A stretch of 43,102 nucleotides of DNA, from sequence record OR352935.1; one strand, 5' to 3'. The notes under the pieces are model-generated. The model made no database searches. It was not told the origin of the DNA and saw nothing but the letters and a program-made list of their open reading frames with translations. How positions within the stretch are numbered: the stretch's first letter is position 1; every line of letters starts with the position of its first letter. Below, one piece after another: positions 5,032 to 16,955 of this stretch. A program made the translations under genes and the position numbers. This DNA comes from Escherichia phage AV104.

Positions 5032-5418
5032 ATGAATCTTAAAGCAACTGTCGTAGCAGGAGCATGTTTCATCATCCTGTTATACACGCACGGCTACTAT
5101 CAATACCGCAGCGGCTGGAACGGAGGCAGGGCTAATCTAGTTTCGCAGCAACAGCAGAAAGCACAGGCTGAGTTAGCGAAGAAAACACAACGGCAGCAGC
5201 AGGACGAATCAAAGGCCGCCGCCGCTGACAACGAAGGCAAGACGAAATCAGAGGTGATTACCCGTGAAGTCGTTAAGTACATTAAAACGCCTGGCCGCAG
5301 CGTGTGCACTTTCGACGATGCTCGCGTCCTGCTCAAGTCCCGCGCCGTCGCAAACGCCAATTCCATCCCCGGATACGACGATGATGCAGCCGCCATGCAA
5401 ACTGGCCGCGCCAAGTAG
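5032..5418 (+). CDS. i-spanin (Rz-like)
   Basis: 128 aa; N-terminal transmembrane segment (VVAGACFIILLY) then Gln/Ala/Lys-rich coiled-coil region; overlapping out-of-frame lipoprotein ORF. Confidence 0.6.
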   Translation: MNLKATVVAGACFIILLYTHGYYQYRSGWNGGRANLVSQQQQKAQAELAKKTQRQQQDESKAAAADNEGKTKSEVITREVVKYIKTPGRSVCTFDDARVLLKSRAVANANSIPGYDDDAAAMQTGRAK

Positions 5419-9866: not shown

Positions 9867-10279
9867 TGGGCTACTTTGAGGACTTAACCAAAGCGTTTGA
9901 CGTGCCGCTGGTAGCCTTTGGAACCACAAACGGCATCAAGGTTGCGCTTGAAAATATCGACGCGCCGACGTCAACAGATACGCCGTATCTGGCAAGTTAC
10001 ATGTTACTTGCGGACACCGAGCAGGCGGATTTGTTCTTCACGGAACAACGCTCTGGTATTTATCAGGTTGACATTAACTACGCATCGGTGAAAGGTAGCG
10101 CGCCAATCAATAAAATGGCAGACTTACTTAACACGGCGTTTAAAGCAGGTAAGTCATTTTCACGTAACGACATCTGCGCCGAGGTTCAATCGGTTAGCCT
10201 GGGGCCGCTGATTGTAGAAAACGGATGGGCCAAACGGCCATTGTCAATTAACTTTATCGCATTCACCAAGAGGCTGTGA
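9863..10279 (+). CDS. tail terminator protein (putative)
   Basis: 138 aa, ATGA coupling; directly upstream of the putative major tail protein. Confidence 0.4.
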   Translation: MMGYFEDLTKAFDVPLVAFGTTNGIKVALENIDAPTSTDTPYLASYMLLADTEQADLFFTEQRSGIYQVDINYASVKGSAPINKMADLLNTAFKAGKSFSRNDICAEVQSVSLGPLIVENGWAKRPLSINFIAFTKRL

Positions 10280-10281
10280 AT

Positions 10282-11448
10282 ATGGCTACAACTCCTTTTA
10301 AGGGCGCGAATACCGCGCAATTCTATGTGGCGGAAGTGACCCCGGGCGTAACACCAAGTAACCCGGTCTGGTCGCCGTTGCGAAACACCGGCGGCGTTCC
10401 TGCAGTAACCCGCGACGCGCTGACCTCCAACGAACTGGACGGCAGCCGTGAAACCACATCCATCCGCACCGGTAACAAGCAGGTTAGTGGTGAGTACGCA
10501 ATCGAACTTAGCTCCCGTAGCCAGGATGATTTCCTTGCGGGTGCTATGACTTCTACGTGGCAGGATGGGGTAGAGATTACGGGCGCCGAAATTACGGTCG
10601 CCCCAGCAGGTAAAACATTCACCCGCGCTGCCGGTAGCTTCATTACTGACGGTGTAGAAGTTGGCGACCTGATTGCGTTCACCGACTTAACCGGCGACAA
10701 CGCAAAACCGTTTATTGTGACCGCGGTCGATGCGCTCGTAGTAACTGGCGCAGGTATTCAGCACACGCTGACGGCAGAGACTGTAACCACCGACGCTAAA
10801 ACTGGCGACAAGCTGGAAACCGGTAACGCGTGTAAGACGTTCTCCATCCTGACGTGGTTCAAAGGACAGTGCGGGAACCCTGACGCGTACATGTTGACCA
10901 AAGGCGTGGAAATCTCCGGTTTCACCATTGAACAGGCCGTAAACGCGATGGTGACAGGCAGCTTCCCGTTCATCGGTCTAAGTCAGGAAATTCTTTCCGG
11001 CCCGCCGACAGGTTCCGACTTCTCTCAGGTCACATTCACTGACGAGCCGTTCTCGTCTGTAGATGTGTCGGTGTTCGATGGGTCCACGCCGTTGCGTTGC
11101 GATACTCTGACCATCACCAACGACAACGGTGCTTCCGCGCAGTTCGAACTCGGCAACAGTAGCGTTGCGTTCGTGGAACGTGGTCGCGCGGCGAATACCT
11201 TCTCCATCTCCGGCAAGCTGTACGACATGGCGATGATTCAGAAGTTTATCAACGAGCAGCAGGTAGAGATTAACTCTATTCTGGCGGGGGTAAACGGGGT
11301 TATGTCTTTCAGCCTGAAACGCGCAGAGCTTACGGCGGTTACGCCAGAAATATCAGGCCCAGAATCAATTACGCAAAGCATAGAAGGACAGTCCACAGGC
11401 AATCAATATCAATCTTCTATTGTTATCCAGCGCATCACCTACGCATAA
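10282..11448 (+). CDS. major tail protein (putative)
   Basis: about 388 aa Thr/Gly/Val-rich protein after the neck genes, followed by a strong terminator; ATG at 10282 with AAGAGG RBS. Confidence 0.55.
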   Translation: MATTPFKGANTAQFYVAEVTPGVTPSNPVWSPLRNTGGVPAVTRDALTSNELDGSRETTSIRTGNKQVSGEYAIELSSRSQDDFLAGAMTSTWQDGVEITGAEITVAPAGKTFTRAAGSFITDGVEVGDLIAFTDLTGDNAKPFIVTAVDALVVTGAGIQHTLTAETVTTDAKTGDKLETGNACKTFSILTWFKGQCGNPDAYMLTKGVEISGFTIEQAVNAMVTGSFPFIGLSQEILSGPPTGSDFSQVTFTDEPFSSVDVSVFDGSTPLRCDTLTITNDNGASAQFELGNSSVAFVERGRAANTFSISGKLYDMAMIQKFINEQQVEINSILAGVNGVMSFSLKRAELTAVTPEISGPESITQSIEGQSTGNQYQSSIVIQRITYA

Positions 11449-11452
11449 AACT

Positions 11453-11478
11453 AAGGCCCCTTTCGGGGCCTTTTTCTT
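11453..11478. terminator. bidirectional rho-independent terminator
   Basis: AAGGCCCC-TTTC-GGGGCCTT flanked by A-tract upstream and T-tract downstream. Confidence 0.65.
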
Positions 11479-11708
11479 TACTCATCAATGTTACTCCTGT
11501 ATTCCCGTAACTTCTCCAGACTTTCAATTGCTTCCGCCAAGTCGGTTCCGGTGTCCTTGTGCCCGCGAAGGCCCATACACAATAATTTCTTCAATGCGTG
11601 CTGTAACGCCGGGTCGCGGATGTCGAAAGCGCGGAGCACATCATAAACGTCTACAGTCATAGTGCTGCCGTGGATGTTTGTCATTGTGCGGTTGTATTTT
11701 GAAGTCAT
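11478..11708 (-). CDS. hypothetical protein
   Basis: 76 aa ORF, last gene of the reverse-strand island. Confidence 0.45.
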   Translation of the reverse strand: MTSKYNRTMTNIHGSTMTVDVYDVLRAFDIRDPALQHALKKLLCMGLRGHKDTGTDLAEAIESLEKLREYRSNIDE

Positions 11709-11721
11709 AAATCACTTTCCC

Positions 11722-12192
11722 CTACTCATGGTTTTCATGGAAACCGTATTTACTCTCCGCGGCTTTACGCGCGGCAACCGCTAGACCAAAATCGTCGTAA
11801 AGCCCTAAATGTACTTGTTTGTAGTTAACTTTTATAAACGCGCGCCACTTACCCGCGGCTTTGTGGAAACTTACACCTGTAGCCCCGGATTTATTTATCT
11901 TTCGCATAGTTTTATTTTTACTGTTCCCTGTATTGTCGGTGGCGCGTAGATTTTCTATTCTATTGTCTAGCCTGTTATGGTTTATGTGGTCTATTTGAGT
12001 TTTCCTGTCTAAGTTGCATTTATTATAAAGACACCATGCTATGCGGTGGACATACACTGTTTTACCACCCATACCGCAGCACAGATAGCCTCTTACACCA
12101 ACCGTACCAACCTCAGCGCCAGTAGATATCCTGGTCACCTGCCCCGTCTCAGGGCAGTATTTAAATTGTTTTGAAACATCAATATATCTCAT
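11722..12192 (-). CDS. HNH homing endonuclease with AP2 DNA-binding domain
   Basis: 156 aa; HNH_3-type motif (VHRIAW ... IDHINHNRLDNRIENLR) followed by AP2-like GVSFHK..GKWRAFI...LGLYDD. Confidence 0.7.
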   Translation of the reverse strand: MRYIDVSKQFKYCPETGQVTRISTGAEVGTVGVRGYLCCGMGGKTVYVHRIAWCLYNKCNLDRKTQIDHINHNRLDNRIENLRATDNTGNSKNKTMRKINKSGATGVSFHKAAGKWRAFIKVNYKQVHLGLYDDFGLAVAARKAAESKYGFHENHE

Positions 12193-13319
12193 CTTAGCAT
12201 CTCCGGTGAGATTGAAAGCCTACCTACTTCCCCGAACTCTGAACTATAGGTTATGACGTTAGCGGACCTCTTAGACATCCACCCGCCGCGAGAAGCATAT
12301 GCATCTTTCGCCGCGAGAGTGCGATGCTGCTCCACTACCATATTCCTACTTTCTACAATCTTTTGGTGGTGGAGATGCCCGACATGCGCATAACTGTACT
12401 CGCTTTCGCCAAATGCTTTTCTGAACTTAGCGATCATAATGGGTTCTACCACCTCAAACCGGCATTTATGTCCGTGTGTAAAGAACAGCGTCGTTTTGCC
12501 GTGTTGCACCATCTTATAAACATCCGGCGACGTATCGACGAACACACGAGGCTCGTTGTCGTACAGCGTACTGAACATCTCAGCCAACCAAATCATTCCG
12601 CTTTCGTCGTGGTTCCCTTGCACGATAAGCAAGCGAACATTTTTGTGTTTAACCAGCGCCATATCAACAACACGGCGGACCATACGAATCATGTAGCGTA
12701 CCAGTTTCTGGTAGCGAGTGTCTGCGTCCAACACATGGCGAGACTCAGGGGTGACGGCATCCAGACTATCGAAGTGCGCAAAATCCCCCAGAAGGTTAAT
12801 AACTCCTGTTCCCGCATCTGGCGCTTTCTGAAACGCCGCGTCGAACCAACGAGAGAACAGATCTTCCGCAATCTTCATATCCCAGTCGTCGCCGCTCTCG
12901 TCGGCCCAGGCCAGCATACCGAGATGAAAATCAGATACCGTGTAAAGATTGAGTAGCTTGTCGTCACGTTTGGCGCGAACGGCTTTAACAGGAGCAACGG
13001 GGGTAATCTCCGACTTCATCCCTTCGATTACGGCTTTCATCAACTCTACCTGACGTTCGGCGTCGGTATCAGTCTTAACCCATTGCAACTTAGTGTTGCC
13101 GAACTCGTCCACTAGTGACGATGTTCCTTTAATCTTGTAGCCGTCAGGAACAAGGTGGCTGACGTCGCGCCCGTGGCCTACGCCTTTCTTAGCCAGCTTC
13201 GCTTTACGGATGCGAATAACGCGGTCTGAGATGCCATATTTACGGGCGATGTCGATATTCTTCATACCGGCGTTCAATTCTTCCTGCAACTGTTCGTCGG
13301 TTATTTTCTTCCGGGCCAT
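12189..13319 (-). CDS. calcineurin-like metallophosphoesterase with N-terminal HTH
   Basis: 376 aa; phosphoesterase motifs D-x-H (SDFHLG), GD..D (GDFAHFD), GNHD, THGH, GHLHH; N-terminal HTH-like segment (IDIARKYGISDRVIRIRK). Confidence 0.7.
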   Translation of the reverse strand: MARKKITDEQLQEELNAGMKNIDIARKYGISDRVIRIRKAKLAKKGVGHGRDVSHLVPDGYKIKGTSSLVDEFGNTKLQWVKTDTDAERQVELMKAVIEGMKSEITPVAPVKAVRAKRDDKLLNLYTVSDFHLGMLAWADESGDDWDMKIAEDLFSRWFDAAFQKAPDAGTGVINLLGDFAHFDSLDAVTPESRHVLDADTRYQKLVRYMIRMVRRVVDMALVKHKNVRLLIVQGNHDESGMIWLAEMFSTLYDNEPRVFVDTSPDVYKMVQHGKTTLFFTHGHKCRFEVVEPIMIAKFRKAFGESEYSYAHVGHLHHQKIVESRNMVVEQHRTLAAKDAYASRGGWMSKRSANVITYSSEFGEVGRLSISPEMLR

Positions 13320-13383
13320 GCTTATTCCTCGTGCTTAGGATTTGTCCTATTTAACCACAGTGGATTCCTTTAAATAAAGGCAA

Positions 13384-13710
13384 CTATTTACTTTCTGCGC
13401 CTATCGCCCACCCTGTCATTACCATTTGCAGACGGGTGGCTGTCAGTAGGCTATAGAAAGCATCTCCGTTTTTCTCTACCGAACGTATCACTGTGTAGGT
13501 TACGGCCTGCGGGGGTAGGCCCGATTTACCAACCTCCACGGCGGCCTCACACTCGCGAACTGTAGAGTCCTTGAACGCCTTTACAATAGTAGGGTCGGCT
13601 TTCTCGAGCACACCAGAAGTCATAAGAACAGATTCACTAAATACCTGTTCGCACGGAGACCCAAAAGTAGCAAAAGACATAAAACCCAGAGCTAGTACTA
13701 ATTTACGCAT
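13384..13710 (-). CDS. small secreted protein (signal peptide)
   Basis: 108 aa; N-terminal MRKLVLALGFMSFATFG hydrophobic signal sequence; first gene of the reverse-strand island. Confidence 0.5.
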   Translation of the reverse strand: MRKLVLALGFMSFATFGSPCEQVFSESVLMTSGVLEKADPTIVKAFKDSTVRECEAAVEVGKSGLPPQAVTYTVIRSVEKNGDAFYSLLTATRLQMVMTGWAIGAESK

Positions 13711-13735
13711 AATTATTTCCTCAGTAAGTTACATG

Positions 13736-13768
13736 TGAATAGTACCCTATTATATTGGGGTGTGCAAG
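13736..13768 (-). promoter_or_regulatory. promoter of reverse island (TTGCAC-17-TACTAT containing TATAATAGGG motif)
   Basis: minus-strand reads CTTGCACACCCCAATATAATAGGGTACTATTCA, almost identical to the promoters at 36190 and 37632. Confidence 0.45.
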
Positions 13769-13874
13769 TAGTGTGCTAGAATAAGTTTGCGCCTAGTGTC
13801 GCACACGAAAAGCGGGTGGTTCCCGCCTGGCGCATTAACCATAACCAGTAACCTCTTAACCAAAGGACTAAAGA

Positions 13875-14291
13875 ATGAAACTTTCTGATTTCTATTTTGC
13901 CGACCGTCACGCCGCCGGTACTAAAATGCCTATCCTTCTGCCGAGCGGAAAAGACTCTGGCGAATGGCTGCAGGTCATTGGCCCCGATTGCGATGCGGGC
14001 GTTCGAGCAGGACGCGCCTACACAACGGCAATTCGACGCCTTACGGAAGAACTCGCGCCATTAGATAAAGAGTGCGAGGCATTGAATAACTGGGCGCGAT
14101 ATAACGATGAGAAGGGCTGGCGTGTGATGGACCTGAACAAGCAGCTTGCCGTGGAAATCGTCACCGGTTGGTCATTCGATGAGCCGTTCAGCAAAGAGGC
14201 GCTGGCTAACCTGTTCGACCAGTACAGTGGGCTGGCGGAGGCTGTAGTTAAGCACCACACCGATAGCCGCGAGAAACTCTCGGAAAAGTAA
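13875..14291 (+). CDS. tail assembly chaperone (gpG-like)
   Basis: 138 aa ORF directly upstream of the tape measure gene; -1 frame stays open past its stop. Confidence 0.55.
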   Translation: MKLSDFYFADRHAAGTKMPILLPSGKDSGEWLQVIGPDCDAGVRAGRAYTTAIRRLTEELAPLDKECEALNNWARYNDEKGWRVMDLNKQLAVEIVTGWSFDEPFSKEALANLFDQYSGLAEAVVKHHTDSREKLSEK

Positions 14292-14653
14292 AAGCGCTGT
14301 ATGAATTTGCGCAATGGTGCTTTGTCGACCGCCACAAACGTAAGCAATTCGACGACATCGCGGCGGGCCACCAGGCGGCTTTGATTGCAATGGGCGTGAT
14401 TAAAGAACCGCAGATGAAAGAAGCGACGGGGCCGGAATGCCCCGTTTCTCTTATCGACGTGTTCGAGAAATACCGTGCCATTAAATTCCTACAGCGCGAA
14501 ACAGATGATACTATCGTTATAATCCCGCGCGATGCGCTCAAATGGCAAGATTTGGTAGCGTTTCGTGATGTCGCCGGTTACGGCATAAGTTTGTTCGAAG
14601 CCGAGGTTATCATGGGCTTAGACGGAATATTTGAGGGCAGAGAAGATGGCTGA
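14282..14653 (+). CDS. tail assembly chaperone frameshift extension (gpT-like segment)
   Basis: -1 frame open from 14267 to 14653, overlapping the G stop; putative slip site GAA-AAG-TAA at 14283-14291. Confidence 0.4.
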   Translation, partial: GKVKALYEFAQWCFVDRHKRKQFDDIAAGHQAALIAMGVIKEPQMKEATGPECPVSLIDVFEKYRAIKFLQRETDDTIVIIPRDALKWQDLVAFRDVAGYGISLFEAEVIMGLDGIFEGREDG

Positions 14654-16955
14654 TACGGCTTCCCTAATTGCCAGAGTAAAAACAGAAGGCGCTGATGTAG
14701 CCGCTAAACAGCTTGACGCTATGGCGGCATCCGCAGACCGTGCGGACACATCCGTAAACAAACTAACGCCGGATGTTAATAAAGTAAACTCCGCTACGTC
14801 TAAAGCGGCTTCTGACGGTTTCGCTAAATTCCGTAACGCCGCCGGGCAGGTAGGCTTCCAGGTGCAGGACATGGTCGTCCAGTTGCAGTCCGGCACGTCT
14901 GCATTCGTAGCAATCGGGCAACAAGGCTCTCAGCTTGCGGGTGCTTTCGGCCCTGGTGGCGCGGTGCTTGGGGCTGTAATTGCTCTCGCATCAGCAATTG
15001 GCGGTGTCCTGTATAAATCACTAACGGAGGCCGAAGGTAGCTCAAAAGACCTCGAGGCCGCGCAAAAGCAGTTAAAAGACACCTTCCAACAAACGGCATC
15101 CGGCTCTCTCGAACTGACAGACGGCCTTATCCAGCTTACCCAAATAAGCCGAGAAGCGGCGGAGACTCAACTTGCTTTGGCTAAGGCTAACGCGGACCTT
15201 ATCGCACAGCAAACAGCTAAAGCTGTTCGTGAGGACGCAGAATCATGGGAGACATGGAAGGCATCCACAGCATCAGCTATCAGCCAGTACGATGCATTGG
15301 TCTCTAAAGGTGCGGATGTAGGCGACACGTTAGAAAAACTCGGTGGCACTTACGAGGGTAACATCGTAGGCGTCAACATGCTGGCGCAGAATATCGCAGA
15401 GCTTAGCAGTAAGTTTGGGGTTAACCGTGACCAGGCGCTGGAGATGATAGCGGCGCAGAGTGCGTTTAACAAAGAGCCAACCGCCGAGAATGCCCGTCGC
15501 ATCGCCGATGTGTTTACCGACTGGCTCGGTAATACAAAACAGTTGAACCCGGAACTTATCCGCCTGACCGACAATGCCAACAAGAACGCCACGGCACTGG
15601 AGAACGCGGAGAAGTCCGCAAACGCGGCGGCGGAGGCCCAAAAGAATCTTGGTCGTAACGTCAACTCAACAACGCAGAGATTCCAGGAACAGAACGAAGC
15701 TATCGTCAAAAACCAGCAAATCGCTATCTTAAGTGACCGCGAGCGTATCCGTGCGCAAGCTGAACTGGATAAGCAGGCGTTCGCTAAACGTGAAGCTGTC
15801 ACCAAAGAACAGATCGCCGCGTATAATGCTGCGCGTGACACGGAAGCACAACAAGACATCGCTCGCATCGACGCTACCGAAAAAGCGAAGGCCGACCGCG
15901 AGGCCAAATCGAACGAGAAACGGCTGGCGGCACAAGCCAAACGCGAAGAAACGGCGGCTGAACGACAGAAAAAAGCGGCGGAAGATTTCCTGGCTACTGT
16001 CGACCGCACAACCGGAGATGAGATTTCGCGCATTACCGCTGCGGAAGAGCAGAAACTGGCAAAACTGGAAGAGTTTAACAGAGCTGGGACTATAAGCCAG
16101 CAGCAATACGAAAACGCCAGGACGCAGATTATGCTCTCGGCCGAACAGGCCCGCCAGGAAGAACTCGCCAAGCGAGAGAAAGAACGACAGGAGAAGAACC
16201 AGAAAGGCGAAGACTTCATGGCTCAGATTATGGGCCAAAACGCCGCTGAGCTTGAGCTTCTGGAGATTCAGGAGCAACAAAAACTGGACGTTGCTGACAG
16301 GTATCGCGAACAGAATCTGATTAACGAAGAACAGTACCAGGCCGCGGTTAATGCTATAAATGACCAGTACGCGTTAAAACGTGCTAACGCAACGGGTAAC
16401 GCTTTTGGCATGATGGCGGATAATATTAAATCGTCGCTTGGCGAAGCGTCTACTGCGTACAAAGCTTTCGCTATTGCGCAGGCCACTATTGCCACATACA
16501 CCTCCGCTATAGAGGCTTATAAATCTGCATCGGCTATCCCTATTGTTGGATGGGTGCTCGGGCCTGTAGCCGCCGCCGCCGCCGTAGCCGCGGGGCTCGC
16601 AAACATTGGCAAAATTCGTTCGGCCCGTGAGCAGGGCGGTAACTTAGCTGCAGGTCAGTTATCTACTATCGCGGAACGTAACAAGCCAGAAGTTATTATG
16701 CCTGCAGGGGCGTCACGCGTCCGTACCGCAGAACAGATGCGCCAGATTATGGGCGAGAACGGCAACAAGTCAGGCGGTGACAGCGTTACAATCGTCAACA
16801 ACACCACCGGACGTGTTGATTCCGCCGTTACAGAGCGTGACGACGAAGGGCGGTTACGTGTTATCATCAGCGAAACAGTATCGGCGGCGTTACAAGACAG
16901 CAACAGTGCAATCTCTAAGTCACGCCGTGCTACACGAAACCAGCCGGGGTATTAA
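14646..16955 (+). CDS. tail tape measure protein
   Basis: about 770 aa, Ala/Gln/Glu/Lys-rich coiled-coil with hydrophobic segments near the C-terminus; downstream of G/T chaperones; ATG at 14646 with GAGG RBS. Confidence 0.8.
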   Translation: MADTASLIARVKTEGADVAAKQLDAMAASADRADTSVNKLTPDVNKVNSATSKAASDGFAKFRNAAGQVGFQVQDMVVQLQSGTSAFVAIGQQGSQLAGAFGPGGAVLGAVIALASAIGGVLYKSLTEAEGSSKDLEAAQKQLKDTFQQTASGSLELTDGLIQLTQISREAAETQLALAKANADLIAQQTAKAVREDAESWETWKASTASAISQYDALVSKGADVGDTLEKLGGTYEGNIVGVNMLAQNIAELSSKFGVNRDQALEMIAAQSAFNKEPTAENARRIADVFTDWLGNTKQLNPELIRLTDNANKNATALENAEKSANAAAEAQKNLGRNVNSTTQRFQEQNEAIVKNQQIAILSDRERIRAQAELDKQAFAKREAVTKEQIAAYNAARDTEAQQDIARIDATEKAKADREAKSNEKRLAAQAKREETAAERQKKAAEDFLATVDRTTGDEISRITAAEEQKLAKLEEFNRAGTISQQQYENARTQIMLSAEQARQEELAKREKERQEKNQKGEDFMAQIMGQNAAELELLEIQEQQKLDVADRYREQNLINEEQYQAAVNAINDQYALKRANATGNAFGMMADNIKSSLGEASTAYKAFAIAQATIATYTSAIEAYKSASAIPIVGWVLGPVAAAAAVAAGLANIGKIRSAREQGGNLAAGQLSTIAERNKPEVIMPAGASRVRTAEQMRQIMGENGNKSGGDSVTIVNNTTGRVDSAVTERDDEGRLRVIISETVSAALQDSNSAISKSRRATRNQPGY

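What the first reader, a model, noticed from the sequence alone, without database searches (positions are those of the whole stretch)
14267..14300. Candidate -1 programmed frameshift joining tail chaperone G to T
The -1 frame is open from 14267 through 14653, overlapping the last codons of the G gene. The only plausible slip site is GAA-AAG immediately before the TAA stop (14283-14291), where a Lys tRNA on AAG could re-pair with AAA. The site is not a canonical X-XXY-YYZ heptamer, so the mechanism is uncertain although the G/GT arrangement is conserved in position.
Basis: partly seen in the sequence, partly recalled or inferred. Interest (0 to 1): 0.4.

Follow-up and report, generated by a model that had tools for sequence, protein, structure and literature searches.

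The report
Tail chaperone G/GT −1 frameshift site
This is a real but already annotated programmed −1 ribosomal frameshift that fuses two tail-assembly chaperone reading frames of a Kagunavirus E. coli phage, using a minimal A_AAG slip site placed directly against the stop codon instead of the textbook seven-base slippery sequence.

Summary
G (13875-14291) ends GAA AAG TAA, and the −1 frame is open from 14267 to 14653.

The window is a Kagunavirus (Guernseyvirinae), about 97% identical to phages Bas76 and BUCT789. The predicted 259-aa fusion (…LSEK|VKAL…) is letter-for-letter the K1H protein ADA82316.1/YP_009168853.1, already deposited as a joined CDS. The frameshift is therefore already known as an annotation.

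Comparative evidence for it is strong:
- All 86 distinct related G–T loci keep A_AAG, and 85 have TAA or TAG directly after it. The codon before it varies (GAA, GCA, GTA, TCA, AAA, CAA).
- In two relatives the frames overlap by only 7 nt, which pins the shift to GCA_AAG.
- Codon periodicity switches from frame 0 to frame −1 at this point.
- Some relatives have no ATG, GTG or TTG before codon 108 of the 121-codon T part, so T cannot be started independently there.

No conserved downstream RNA structure or upstream Shine-Dalgarno-like stimulator was found.

Three features remain unexplained: an invariant GCGYTG 5 nt downstream of the slip site, a strong TAG bias, and no TGA at all.

Most likely mechanism: the single tRNA-Lys slips from AAG to AAA, probably while the ribosome waits at the stop codon. 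No experiment has tested this.

The parts
10276..11448 (+). Tail tube (major tail) protein gene, upstream neighbour of the chaperone genes
   Evidence: Pfam PF18906 Phage_tube_2, E 1e-35; phrog_290
13875..14291 (+). Gene G: tail assembly chaperone, 138 aa, the zero-frame product
   Evidence: ORF list; Pfam PF08748 Phage_TAC_4 at 35.9 bits against a cutoff of 21.1; phrog_15027 positions 1-138
14285..14288 (+). A_AAG shift site. tRNA-Lys re-pairs from AAG (14286-88) to AAA (14285-87). It sits inside the non-canonical heptamer G_GAA_AAG (14282-14288)
   Evidence: Invariant in 86 of 86 distinct relatives while the 5' codon varies. GAA and AAG show 0 observed synonymous differences against 122 and 218 expected. 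The 7-nt overlap in L052/L054 pins the shift to this point
14289..14291 (+). G stop codon TAA, directly 3' of the shift codon. Probable pause element
   Evidence: TAA or TAG directly follows AAG in 85 of 86 relatives. Among 34 non-redundant relatives: TAG 27, TAA 7, TGA 0. Bas76 genome-wide: TAA 38, TGA 38, TAG 8
14294..14299 (+). Conserved hexamer GCGCTG (GCGYTG in relatives), 5 nt 3' of AAG. Candidate 3' context element, role unknown
   Evidence: The Ala141 codon is GCG in every relative: 0 observed against 351 expected synonymous pair differences. Leu142 is CTG or TTG only. No conserved pairing partner
14288..14653 (+). T segment, read in the -1 frame after the slip: 121 codons plus TGA, first codon GTA at 14288-90. 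The open -1 frame begins at 14267
   Evidence: Translation; Pfam PF23812 Phage_TAC_18 at 64.5 bits against a cutoff of 27; phrog_15027 positions 137-259. Codon-position entropy 0.65/0.64/1.34 in the -1 frame between the G stop and TTG 14381
14646..16955 (+). Tape measure protein gene. Its ATG overlaps the end of T (ATGGCTGA)
   Evidence: phrog_1538, E 1.6e-189. Synonymous suppression at the last two T codons

Best explanation
Most ribosomes translating G stop at TAA 14289-91 and release the 138-aa chaperone G. A small fraction slip back one base when the single host tRNA-Lys, paired to AAG (14286-88), re-pairs to AAA (14285-87). These ribosomes then read GTA AAA GCG CTG and onward in the -1 frame to TGA 14651-53. 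The product is a 259-aa GT fusion (…REKLSEK-VKALYEF…).

By analogy with lambda gpG/gpGT, the G part binds the tape measure protein. The T part recruits the tail tube protein, so a fixed low GT:G ratio is set by translation itself.

The signal is minimal: an A_AAG tetramer with no RNA structure and no Shine-Dalgarno-like stimulator. I infer that the slip happens mainly with tRNA-Lys in the P site while the adjacent TAA/TAG waits for a release factor. The invariant GCGYTG 5 nt downstream would then contribute as sequence context.

Shown here: the anatomy, the conservation, the frame switch of purifying selection and the lack of independent starts. Inferred: the slip itself, the ribosomal site of the slip, its efficiency, and the roles of the stop codon and of GCGYTG.
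For: 1. The fusion with junction SEK|VKAL is identical to K1H ADA82316.1/YP_009168853.1, and joined CDSs are annotated in K1H, K1G and fFiEco02.
2. G hits Phage_TAC_4 and the -1 ORF hits Phage_TAC_18. The two together tile the 259-position profile phrog_15027.
3. A_AAG is present in 86 of 86 distinct loci and a stop follows directly in 85. The 5' codon is GAA, GCA, GTA, TCA, AAA or CAA.
4. L052 and L054 have a -1 frame TAA immediately before CGC AAA GTA, which leaves only GCA_AAG as the place to shift.
5. The T part from the first codon after the G stop is conserved at 48-59% identity with full coverage in 490 phage records. Third-position entropy is twice that of positions 1 and 2 in the -1 frame.
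6. No start codon is conserved in position across relatives. In L047 and L056 the first is at codon 108, in L046 at codon 94, and in L006 and L051 at codon 57.
7. Synonymous change is suppressed in only two places of the 259 codons: residues 137-142 and the overlap with the tape measure gene start.
8. A_AAG is the most shift-prone tetramer in E. coli. E. coli decodes AAA and AAG with one tRNA-Lys (PMC4066793; PMC5009743).
9. The window encodes no tRNA.
Against: There is no experimental detection of GT for this phage group in the literature I could search.

In reporter assays, tetramers without a stimulator are barely above background: 0.147% against 0.112%. A_AAG reached 5.6% only with the IS3 pseudoknot (PMC4066793). 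No structure is found here: RNAalifold gives -0.23 kcal/mol with 0 compensatory pairs, and the window fold has z = +1.07. Efficiency may therefore be very low unless the stop codon and the 3' context compensate.

The review states that a slow A site matters more for +1 than for -1 shifting.

The absence of TGA is not explained by a simple slow-termination model. The position of the stop could also be conserved simply to end G correctly.
Confidence: 0.9

Rival explanations
1. This is a sub-variant of the same frameshift. Classical two-tRNA slippage on the heptamer G_GAA_AAG, with tRNA-Glu in the P site (GAA to GGA) and tRNA-Lys in the A site (AAG to AAA). The stop codon plays no part.
For: GAA is the commonest 5' codon, in 22 of 34 non-redundant relatives. 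GAA to GGA keeps two Watson-Crick pairs plus a G-U pair. NNA_AAG hexamer sites that depend on wobble properties of the P-site tRNA are described (PMC5009743). The distant relative Vibrio phage R31B has A_AAG sites that are not next to a stop.
Against: The 5' codon is GCA, GTA, TCA or CAA in many relatives, and those cannot re-pair in the -1 frame. The stop is directly adjacent in 85 of 86 loci and is strongly biased to TAG. By contrast, tail-chaperone slip sites lie on average 26-36 nt from the stop in other phage sets (PMC10885494).
Confidence: 0.3
2. T is a separate protein started on its own: at TTG 14381 or ATG 14390 as gene callers predict, at CTG 14297 as annotated in Bas76, or by termination-reinitiation after the G stop. 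No frameshift occurs.
For: Many records annotate T as a separate CDS. 87-aa and 119-aa versions exist in protein databases. Jerseyvirus-type relatives have TTG at the position of CTG 14297, with AGGA upstream.
Against: The 30 codons upstream of TTG 14381 are conserved as protein. The codon at 14297 is CTG, not a canonical start, in about 67 of 86 relatives. L047 and L056 have no ATG, GTG or TTG before codon 108 of 121. This model does not explain why A_AAG is invariant at synonymous sites. No Shine-Dalgarno-like 4-mer is conserved.
Confidence: 0.04
3. The frame change is made in the mRNA by RNA polymerase slippage on the A run (GAAAAG), not by the ribosome.
For: Both routes would give the same protein sequence. 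Transcriptional slippage is used in some bacterial and phage genes (PMC5009743).
Against: The run is only 4 A here, and 3 A in the GCA, GTA and TCA relatives. From general knowledge, productive slippage needs much longer homopolymer runs. The G after the A run and the adjacent stop are invariant, which an RNA polymerase slippage model does not require.
Confidence: 0.02

Closest known systems
Escherichia phage K1H ORF19A/ORF19B (ADA82315.1/ADA82316.1; RefSeq YP_009168854.1/YP_009168853.1), and the equivalent joined CDSs of K1G and fFiEco02
   Same: Same genes, about 95% nucleotide identity. The predicted GT protein is 100% identical, including the junction.
   Different: None in sequence. Those records give only a joined CDS, with no stated mechanism or experimental support. 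Other close relatives (Bas76, BUCT789, hz69) annotate T as a separate ORF or as a hypothetical protein.
Phage lambda gpG/gpGT -1 frameshift at G_GGA_AAG, the conserved tail chaperone frameshift of dsDNA tailed phages (Levin 1993 and Xu 2004, 2013, 2014, as summarised in PMC5009743)
   Same: Two ORFs lie before the tape measure gene and the second is in the -1 frame. The A-site codon AAG re-pairs to AAA. No stimulatory structure is needed. A low-abundance fusion links the tape measure and tube proteins.
   Different: The heptamer here is G_GAA_AAG, one base away from lambda's, so the P-site tRNA cannot re-pair cognately. The P-site codon is not conserved in the family. The shift codon abuts the stop. 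I did not compare these proteins with lambda G/T directly; they fall in Pfam Phage_TAC_4 and Phage_TAC_18. The tube gene and G are separated by 2.4 kb of opposite-strand genes.
A_AAG tetramer / NNA_AAG hexamer -1 shift sites: IS3, IS1222 (G_CGA_AAG), Bacillus subtilis cdd (A_CGA_AAG)
   Same: Single tRNA-Lys slippage from AAG to AAA, with a 5' codon that cannot re-pair well (PMC5009743; PMC4066793).
   Different: IS3 and IS1222 use a downstream pseudoknot, and tetramers are near background without one. Here no structure and no SD-like element is conserved. Instead there is an adjacent stop codon and an invariant GCGYTG.
Pea enation mosaic virus -1 site G_GAU_UUU_UGG_UAG, where a stop codon near the -1 shift site matters
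   Same: A stop codon close to the 3' side of a -1 shift site is needed for efficiency, independent of RNA structure (PMC5009743).
   Different: That is a eukaryotic virus with a heptamer site, and the stop lies one codon further downstream. Any stop codon works there, whereas TGA is never used here.

Membership tests
Tailed-phage G/GT tail assembly chaperone frameshift (Xu-Hendrix-Duda type) | Two ORFs located between the major tail/tube gene and the tape measure gene | tested here: met
   Tube gene 10276-11448, G 13875-14291, T frame to 14653, tape measure gene 14646-16955. A 2.4-kb opposite-strand module lies between the tube gene and G.
Tailed-phage G/GT tail assembly chaperone frameshift (Xu-Hendrix-Duda type) | The second ORF overlaps the 3' end of the first in the -1 frame and has no conserved start of its own | tested here: met
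   -1 frame open from 14267. The overlap is 7-205 nt in relatives. First start codons vary in position, and in L047 and L056 none occurs before codon 108.
Tailed-phage G/GT tail assembly chaperone frameshift (Xu-Hendrix-Duda type) | Canonical X_XXY_YYZ slippery heptamer in the overlap | tested here: not met
   G_GAA_AAG in the window. Only L036 and L040 have A_AAA_AAG. The Shashou authors also noted 'no canonical slippery sequence' (PMC6776780). A re-pairing site does exist as the tetramer A_AAG.
Tailed-phage G/GT tail assembly chaperone frameshift (Xu-Hendrix-Duda type) | Both parts belong to tail assembly chaperone protein families | tested here: met
   PF08748 Phage_TAC_4 (35.9 bits, cutoff 21.1) and PF23812 Phage_TAC_18 (64.5 bits, cutoff 27). 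phrog_15027 is covered over positions 1-259. No relative with a solved structure was found by sequence.
Tailed-phage G/GT tail assembly chaperone frameshift (Xu-Hendrix-Duda type) | Fusion protein is made at a low percentage of G and is required for tail assembly | not testable with these tools
   No experimental report was found for Guernseyvirinae.
Z_ZZN tetramer / NNA_AAG hexamer -1 frameshift sites | Zero-frame A_AAG that allows cognate re-pairing of tRNA-Lys to AAA | tested here: met
   14285-14288; invariant in 86 of 86 relatives; synonymous alternatives (GAG, AAA) are never used.
Z_ZZN tetramer / NNA_AAG hexamer -1 frameshift sites | Host decodes AAA and AAG with a single tRNA-Lys (UUU), and the phage supplies no tRNA-Lys (CUU) | tested here: met
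   No tRNA genes in the window. The single tRNA-Lys of E. coli is established knowledge (PMC5009743). The identity of the host is inferred from relatives.
Z_ZZN tetramer / NNA_AAG hexamer -1 frameshift sites | Flanking stimulator: a downstream hairpin or pseudoknot, or an upstream SD-like sequence | tested here: not met
   RNAalifold consensus of 3 pairs at -0.23 kcal/mol. Window 14292-14380 folds with z = +1.07. An SD-like 4-mer is present in only 4 of 34 relatives. No Rfam frameshift element was found.
dnaX-type signal (A_AAA_AAG + upstream SD + downstream hairpin) | A_AAA_AAG heptamer with both stimulators | tested here: not met
   The heptamer is absent from the window, and neither stimulator is present.

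The most novel reading that the evidence does not exclude
The selected unit would be a compact, structure-free '-1 shifty stop' cassette, A_AAG-UAR-NN-GCGYUG. In it, tRNA-Lys slips in the P site while an RF1-readable stop codon (UAG or UAA, never UGA) occupies the A site. The invariant GCGYUG in the mRNA entry channel would act as a sequence-specific stimulator. That would be a type of bacterial -1 frameshift signal not described so far, one that canonical-heptamer search tools miss.
Probability: 0.25. Interest if true: 0.5.

Novelty: already known. Interest (0 to 1): 0.3.

Why it matters
**Annotation.** The same locus is annotated three different ways in near-identical genomes: as a joined frameshift CDS, as a separate 'tail assembly chaperone' that starts at a CTG, or as a hypothetical protein of 87-119 aa. 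At least one genome paper reported no canonical slippery sequence between the two genes. The comparative evidence here settles the gene model as G plus GT joined at AAG 14286-88.

**Recoding biology.** This is a large natural series of 86 distinct sequences in which an A_AAG tetramer abuts a stop codon with no RNA structure. The series also shows a stop-codon bias and a conserved 3' hexamer, neither of which is explained. That makes it a convenient system for asking what stimulates -1 slippage at minimal sites. The general phenomenon is textbook, and a specialist would not be surprised that it exists here.

Tried and rejected
- **Downstream stimulatory structure.** RNAalifold on 27 diverse relatives from -30 to +110 found only a 3-pair GCG/YGC 'stem' with an 11-nt loop, no compensatory change, at -0.23 kcal/mol. 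The window 14292-14380 folds worse than its shuffles, z = +1.07. The GC-rich hairpin at 14425-14446 lies 137 nt from the slip site, which is too far to act on it.
- **Upstream Shine-Dalgarno-like stimulator.** A 4-mer core is present 5-22 nt upstream in only 4 of 34 relatives.
- **Rfam.** No frameshift element was found. The only hit is int-alpA, upstream of G.
- **Other slip sites in the 22-nt overlap.** G_AAA, A_CTC, C_TCG and G_GAA do not allow cognate re-pairing, and the 7-nt overlap in L052 and L054 excludes them.
- **A partner for GCGCTG.** By eye, the only candidate I could find downstream was the G-U-rich TGGTGC at 14314-14319, and it is not conserved in the alignment.
- **Solved-structure relatives.** Sequence search found nothing below E = 0.07.
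- **Literature.** I searched for experimental GT detection in Jerseyvirinae, Guernseyvirinae and Kagunavirus and found none. The Anany 2015 paper (PMID 25663216) is not held.
- **Excluded loci.** SS3e (L007) and GE_vB_HIL (L094) have broken G frames, apparently from sequence errors, and were left out.

Full report
**1. What is at the coordinates.** The window reads …CTC TCG GAA AAG TAA AAG CGC TG… across 14277-14299. G runs from 13875 to 14291 (138 aa), with GAA at 14283-85, AAG at 14286-88 and TAA at 14289-91. The −1 frame has stops at 14249-51 and 14264-66. It is then open for 128 codons, from 14267 to the TGA at 14651-53. Its first canonical start codons are TTG 14381 and ATG 14390. The tape measure gene starts at ATG 14646 and overlaps the end of this frame. 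Every statement of fact in the finding is therefore correct.

**2. What the genome is.** The region is 97% identical to Escherichia phages Bas76 and BUCT789 and 95% identical to K1H. All are Kagunavirus, subfamily Guernseyvirinae.
- G hits Pfam Phage_TAC_4.
- The −1 ORF hits Phage_TAC_18.
- The 390-aa ORF at 10276-11448 is a tail tube protein.
- The 769-aa ORF is a tape measure protein.
- One PHROG profile of 259 positions (phrog_15027) is matched by G over positions 1-138 and by the −1 ORF over 137-259. The profile was therefore built from fused proteins with exactly this junction.

**3. Already annotated.** K1H, K1G and fFiEco02 carry joined CDSs; the labels are 'ORF19B' in K1H, 'ORF22B' in K1G and 'frameshift product' in fFiEco02. 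I built the fusion by reading G through AAG and continuing with GTA at 14288. An exact-sequence look-up returned ADA82316.1 / YP_009168853.1 / UniRef100_D2XJD7, 'tail assembly chaperone [Escherichia phage K1H]'. The frameshift, at this very junction, is thus already in the public record as a prediction.

Other records treat it differently:
- Bas76 annotates T as a separate CDS that starts at the CTG equivalent to 14297.
- SETP3, Ent1, phiEap-2, SP-031 and Tsm2 use various other starts.
- The Shashou paper states that there is 'no canonical slippery sequence' (PMC6776780).
- I found no experimental demonstration of GT for this phage group.

**4. Comparative test of the frameshift.** I collected 13 annotated relatives and 80 IMG/VR loci, which gave 86 distinct G–T DNA sequences.

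*(a) The slip site.* Every sequence has A_AAG at the end of G, and 85 have TAA or TAG immediately after it. The exception, L037, reads A_AAG_TTA_TAG. The preceding codon is GAA, GCA, GTA, TCA, AAA or CAA. Only its final A is fixed, so the conserved unit is the tetramer and not the heptamer. Two sequences (L036, L040) happen to have the canonical A_AAA_AAG.

*(b) The overlap.* The −1/0 overlap ranges from 7 to 205 nt. In L052 and L054 a −1 frame TAA sits directly before CGC AAA GTA. There the shift can only happen on GCA_AAG.

*(c) Conservation of T as protein.* The T part, starting at the first codon after the G stop, aligns over its full length at 48-59% identity in 490 phage records. In a 27-sequence nucleotide alignment, positional entropy in the 30 codons between the G stop and TTG 14381 is 0.65/0.64/1.34 in the −1 frame. 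Upstream of the site the highest entropy falls on zero-frame third positions. Purifying selection therefore changes frame at A_AAG.

*(d) No independent start.* No start codon is conserved in position across relatives. The codon at 14297 is CTG in most relatives and TTG in 17. The first ATG, GTG or TTG is at codon 57 in L006 and L051, at codon 94 in L046, and at codon 108 of 121 in L047 and L056. The T regions of these phages are intact and conserved. Independent initiation cannot make T in those phages.

*(e) Synonymous sites.* I ran a synonymous-site analysis on 35 sequences that share less than 92% identity. Across all 259 codons, synonymous change is strongly suppressed in only two places. 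One is residues 137-142, where observed/expected falls to 0.09. The other is the last two codons, which overlap the tape measure start.

| Codon | Observed synonymous pair differences | Expected | Note |
|---|---|---|---|
| GAA (Glu137) | 0 | 122 | never GAG |
| AAG (Lys138) | 0 | 218 | never AAA |
| GCG (Ala141) | 0 | 351 | invariant |
| Leu142 | 124 | 420 | only CTG or TTG |

**5. Stimulators.** No conserved RNA structure follows the site. RNAalifold finds three pairs, no compensatory changes and −0.23 kcal/mol. The window's own 89 nt downstream fold worse than their shuffles, z = +1.07. An SD-like 4-mer lies 5-22 nt upstream in only 4 of 34 non-redundant relatives. Rfam has no frameshift element here.

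Three sequence-level features are conserved instead:
- **The adjacent stop codon.** Among 34 non-redundant relatives it is TAG 27, TAA 7 and TGA 0. Bas76 genes overall use TAA 38, TGA 38 and TAG 8, and the −1 frame Val codon would tolerate GTG.
- **The base after the stop.** It is A in 21, C in 12, T in 1 and never G.
- **The invariant GCGYTG, 5 nt after AAG.** It keeps its distance from A_AAG in L037, where the stop is displaced.

For comparison, tail-chaperone slip sites lie on average 26 nt (SEA-PHAGES set) or 36 nt (Xu et al. set) from the zero-frame stop (PMC10885494). Direct abutment in 85 of 86 sequences is therefore unusual.

**6. Mechanism.** Established knowledge covers the first part.
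- A_AAG is the most shift-prone Z_ZZN tetramer in E. coli.
- E. coli has one tRNA-Lys for both AAA and AAG.
- NNA_AAG sites are used by IS1222, and one occurs incidentally in B. subtilis cdd (PMC5009743; PMC4066793).

The window encodes no tRNA that could alter this.

The best-supported mechanism is therefore single-tRNA slippage of tRNA-Lys from AAG to AAA. It yields …LSEK-VKAL….

Which ribosomal site it slips in is an inference. I favour P-site slippage with the stop codon in the A site, at roughly 55%. The reasons are that the 5' codon is free to vary, the stop is directly adjacent, and the stop is biased to TAG, which is read by RF1 only. The alternative is A-site slippage with a tolerant P-site tRNA, as in the hexamer model. 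It remains plausible at roughly 30-35%. GAA dominates, and the review notes that slow A sites matter less for −1 shifting than for +1.

A caveat on efficiency: tetramers without a stimulator were near background in reporters, at 0.147% against 0.112%. Either a very low GT level suffices, or the stop and GCGYTG act as stimulators.

The function of GT is taken from lambda and was not tested here. In lambda, G binds the tape measure protein, T binds the tube protein, and the GT:G ratio is about 1:30 (PMC5009743).

**7. Rivals.**
- Independent initiation or reinitiation of T is contradicted by points 4c-e.
- Transcriptional slippage is unlikely on a run of 3-4 A.
- A decaying, non-functional T is excluded by its conservation.

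**8. Verdict.** The site belongs to a described class of −1 shift sites. It is not new, because the identical fusion protein is already deposited. The remaining points of interest are modest: a structure-free A_AAG-stop cassette conserved across a whole phage subfamily, with an unexplained TAG bias, avoidance of TGA, and a conserved 3' hexamer. There is also a practical correction for the many records that annotate T as a separate ORF.

Noticed in passing
window 13786-13850 (+), in the intergenic region upstream of G (conserved block about 13735-13897): Rfam RF02996 (int-alpA RNA) matches at exactly its gathering score: 35.8 bits, E 1.9e-5. It did not appear in the whole-window gathering scan. 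Weaker hits lie at the same place upstream of G in Shashou, K1G and L087. A 7-sequence alignment gives a multi-stem fold with compensatory changes in one hairpin. The same segment is 94-96% identical in Kagunaviruses whose G and T proteins are only about 50% identical to the window's. Bas76 annotates a 30-aa minus-strand ORF over it. The function is unknown.
   Followed up: partly
window 11722-12192 (-): A 156-aa ORF with HNH_3 (E 7.8e-10) and a weak AP2 domain, which looks like a homing endonuclease. It is absent from the same position in Bas76, where the 76-aa ORF directly abuts the metallophosphoesterase gene.
   Followed up: partly
window 11478-13710 (-): A 2.4-kb block of opposite-strand genes separates the tail tube gene from G. 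It holds a 76-aa ORF, the HNH ORF, a 376-aa metallophosphoesterase annotated as 'DNA repair exonuclease', and a 108-aa ORF with a signal-peptide-like N-terminus. The chaperone genes therefore do not sit directly after the tube gene, and probably need their own promoter in 13711-13874.
   Followed up: no
window 14425-14446 (+): A GC-rich 8-bp hairpin (GACGGGGCCGGAATGCCCCGTT) followed by a T-rich stretch, inside the T frame. It encodes the conserved GPECP motif. It is terminator-like by pattern only, and too far (137 nt) from the slip site to stimulate the frameshift.
   Followed up: no
window 14646-14653; relatives, same position: The T stop and the tape measure start overlap as ATGGCTGA. The sequence is nearly invariant across relatives, and synonymous change is suppressed in the last two T codons. 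This is consistent with translational coupling of the tape measure gene to T-frame or G-frame ribosomes.
   Followed up: partly
L095 (Vibrio phage R31B, 1266-1308), L096 (Acinetobacter phage Bhz9), L097 (Pseudomonas phage PA_LZ02): These distant Phage_TAC_4 relatives (22-30% identity) also have a -1 ORF before the tape measure gene. R31B has two zero-frame A_AAG sites (GTA_AAG_CAA_AAG) right after the -1 frame opens, about 30 nt before the stop. Bhz9 has CAA_AAG twice. The GC-rich Pseudomonas phage has no A_AAG in the 45 nt before its G stop (its 73-nt overlap was not read in full). A_AAG use may extend beyond Guernseyvirinae, but without stop adjacency.
   Followed up: partly
L036 and L040 (IMG/VR contigs 3300027985_000054 and _000085): These two relatives carry the canonical dnaX-type heptamer A_AAA_AAG followed by TAG at the same position. 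The family evidently tolerates both canonical and minimal sites.
   Followed up: no
L007 (Salmonella phage SS3e, NC_006940.2) and L094 (GE_vB_HIL, MG969408.1): The G reading frame is broken in these records. In SS3e, G is annotated only from locus position 332 to 589, and GE_vB_HIL is flagged UNVERIFIED. These are probably sequencing errors rather than biology.
   Followed up: no
L098 (Bas76) 5282-5392: This is the only other annotated Bas76 gene that ends in A_AAG plus a stop (…GTA AAA AAG TAA, a full A_AAA_AAG heptamer). It is a 36-aa hypothetical ORF, and I did not check for a -1 extension.
   Followed up: no
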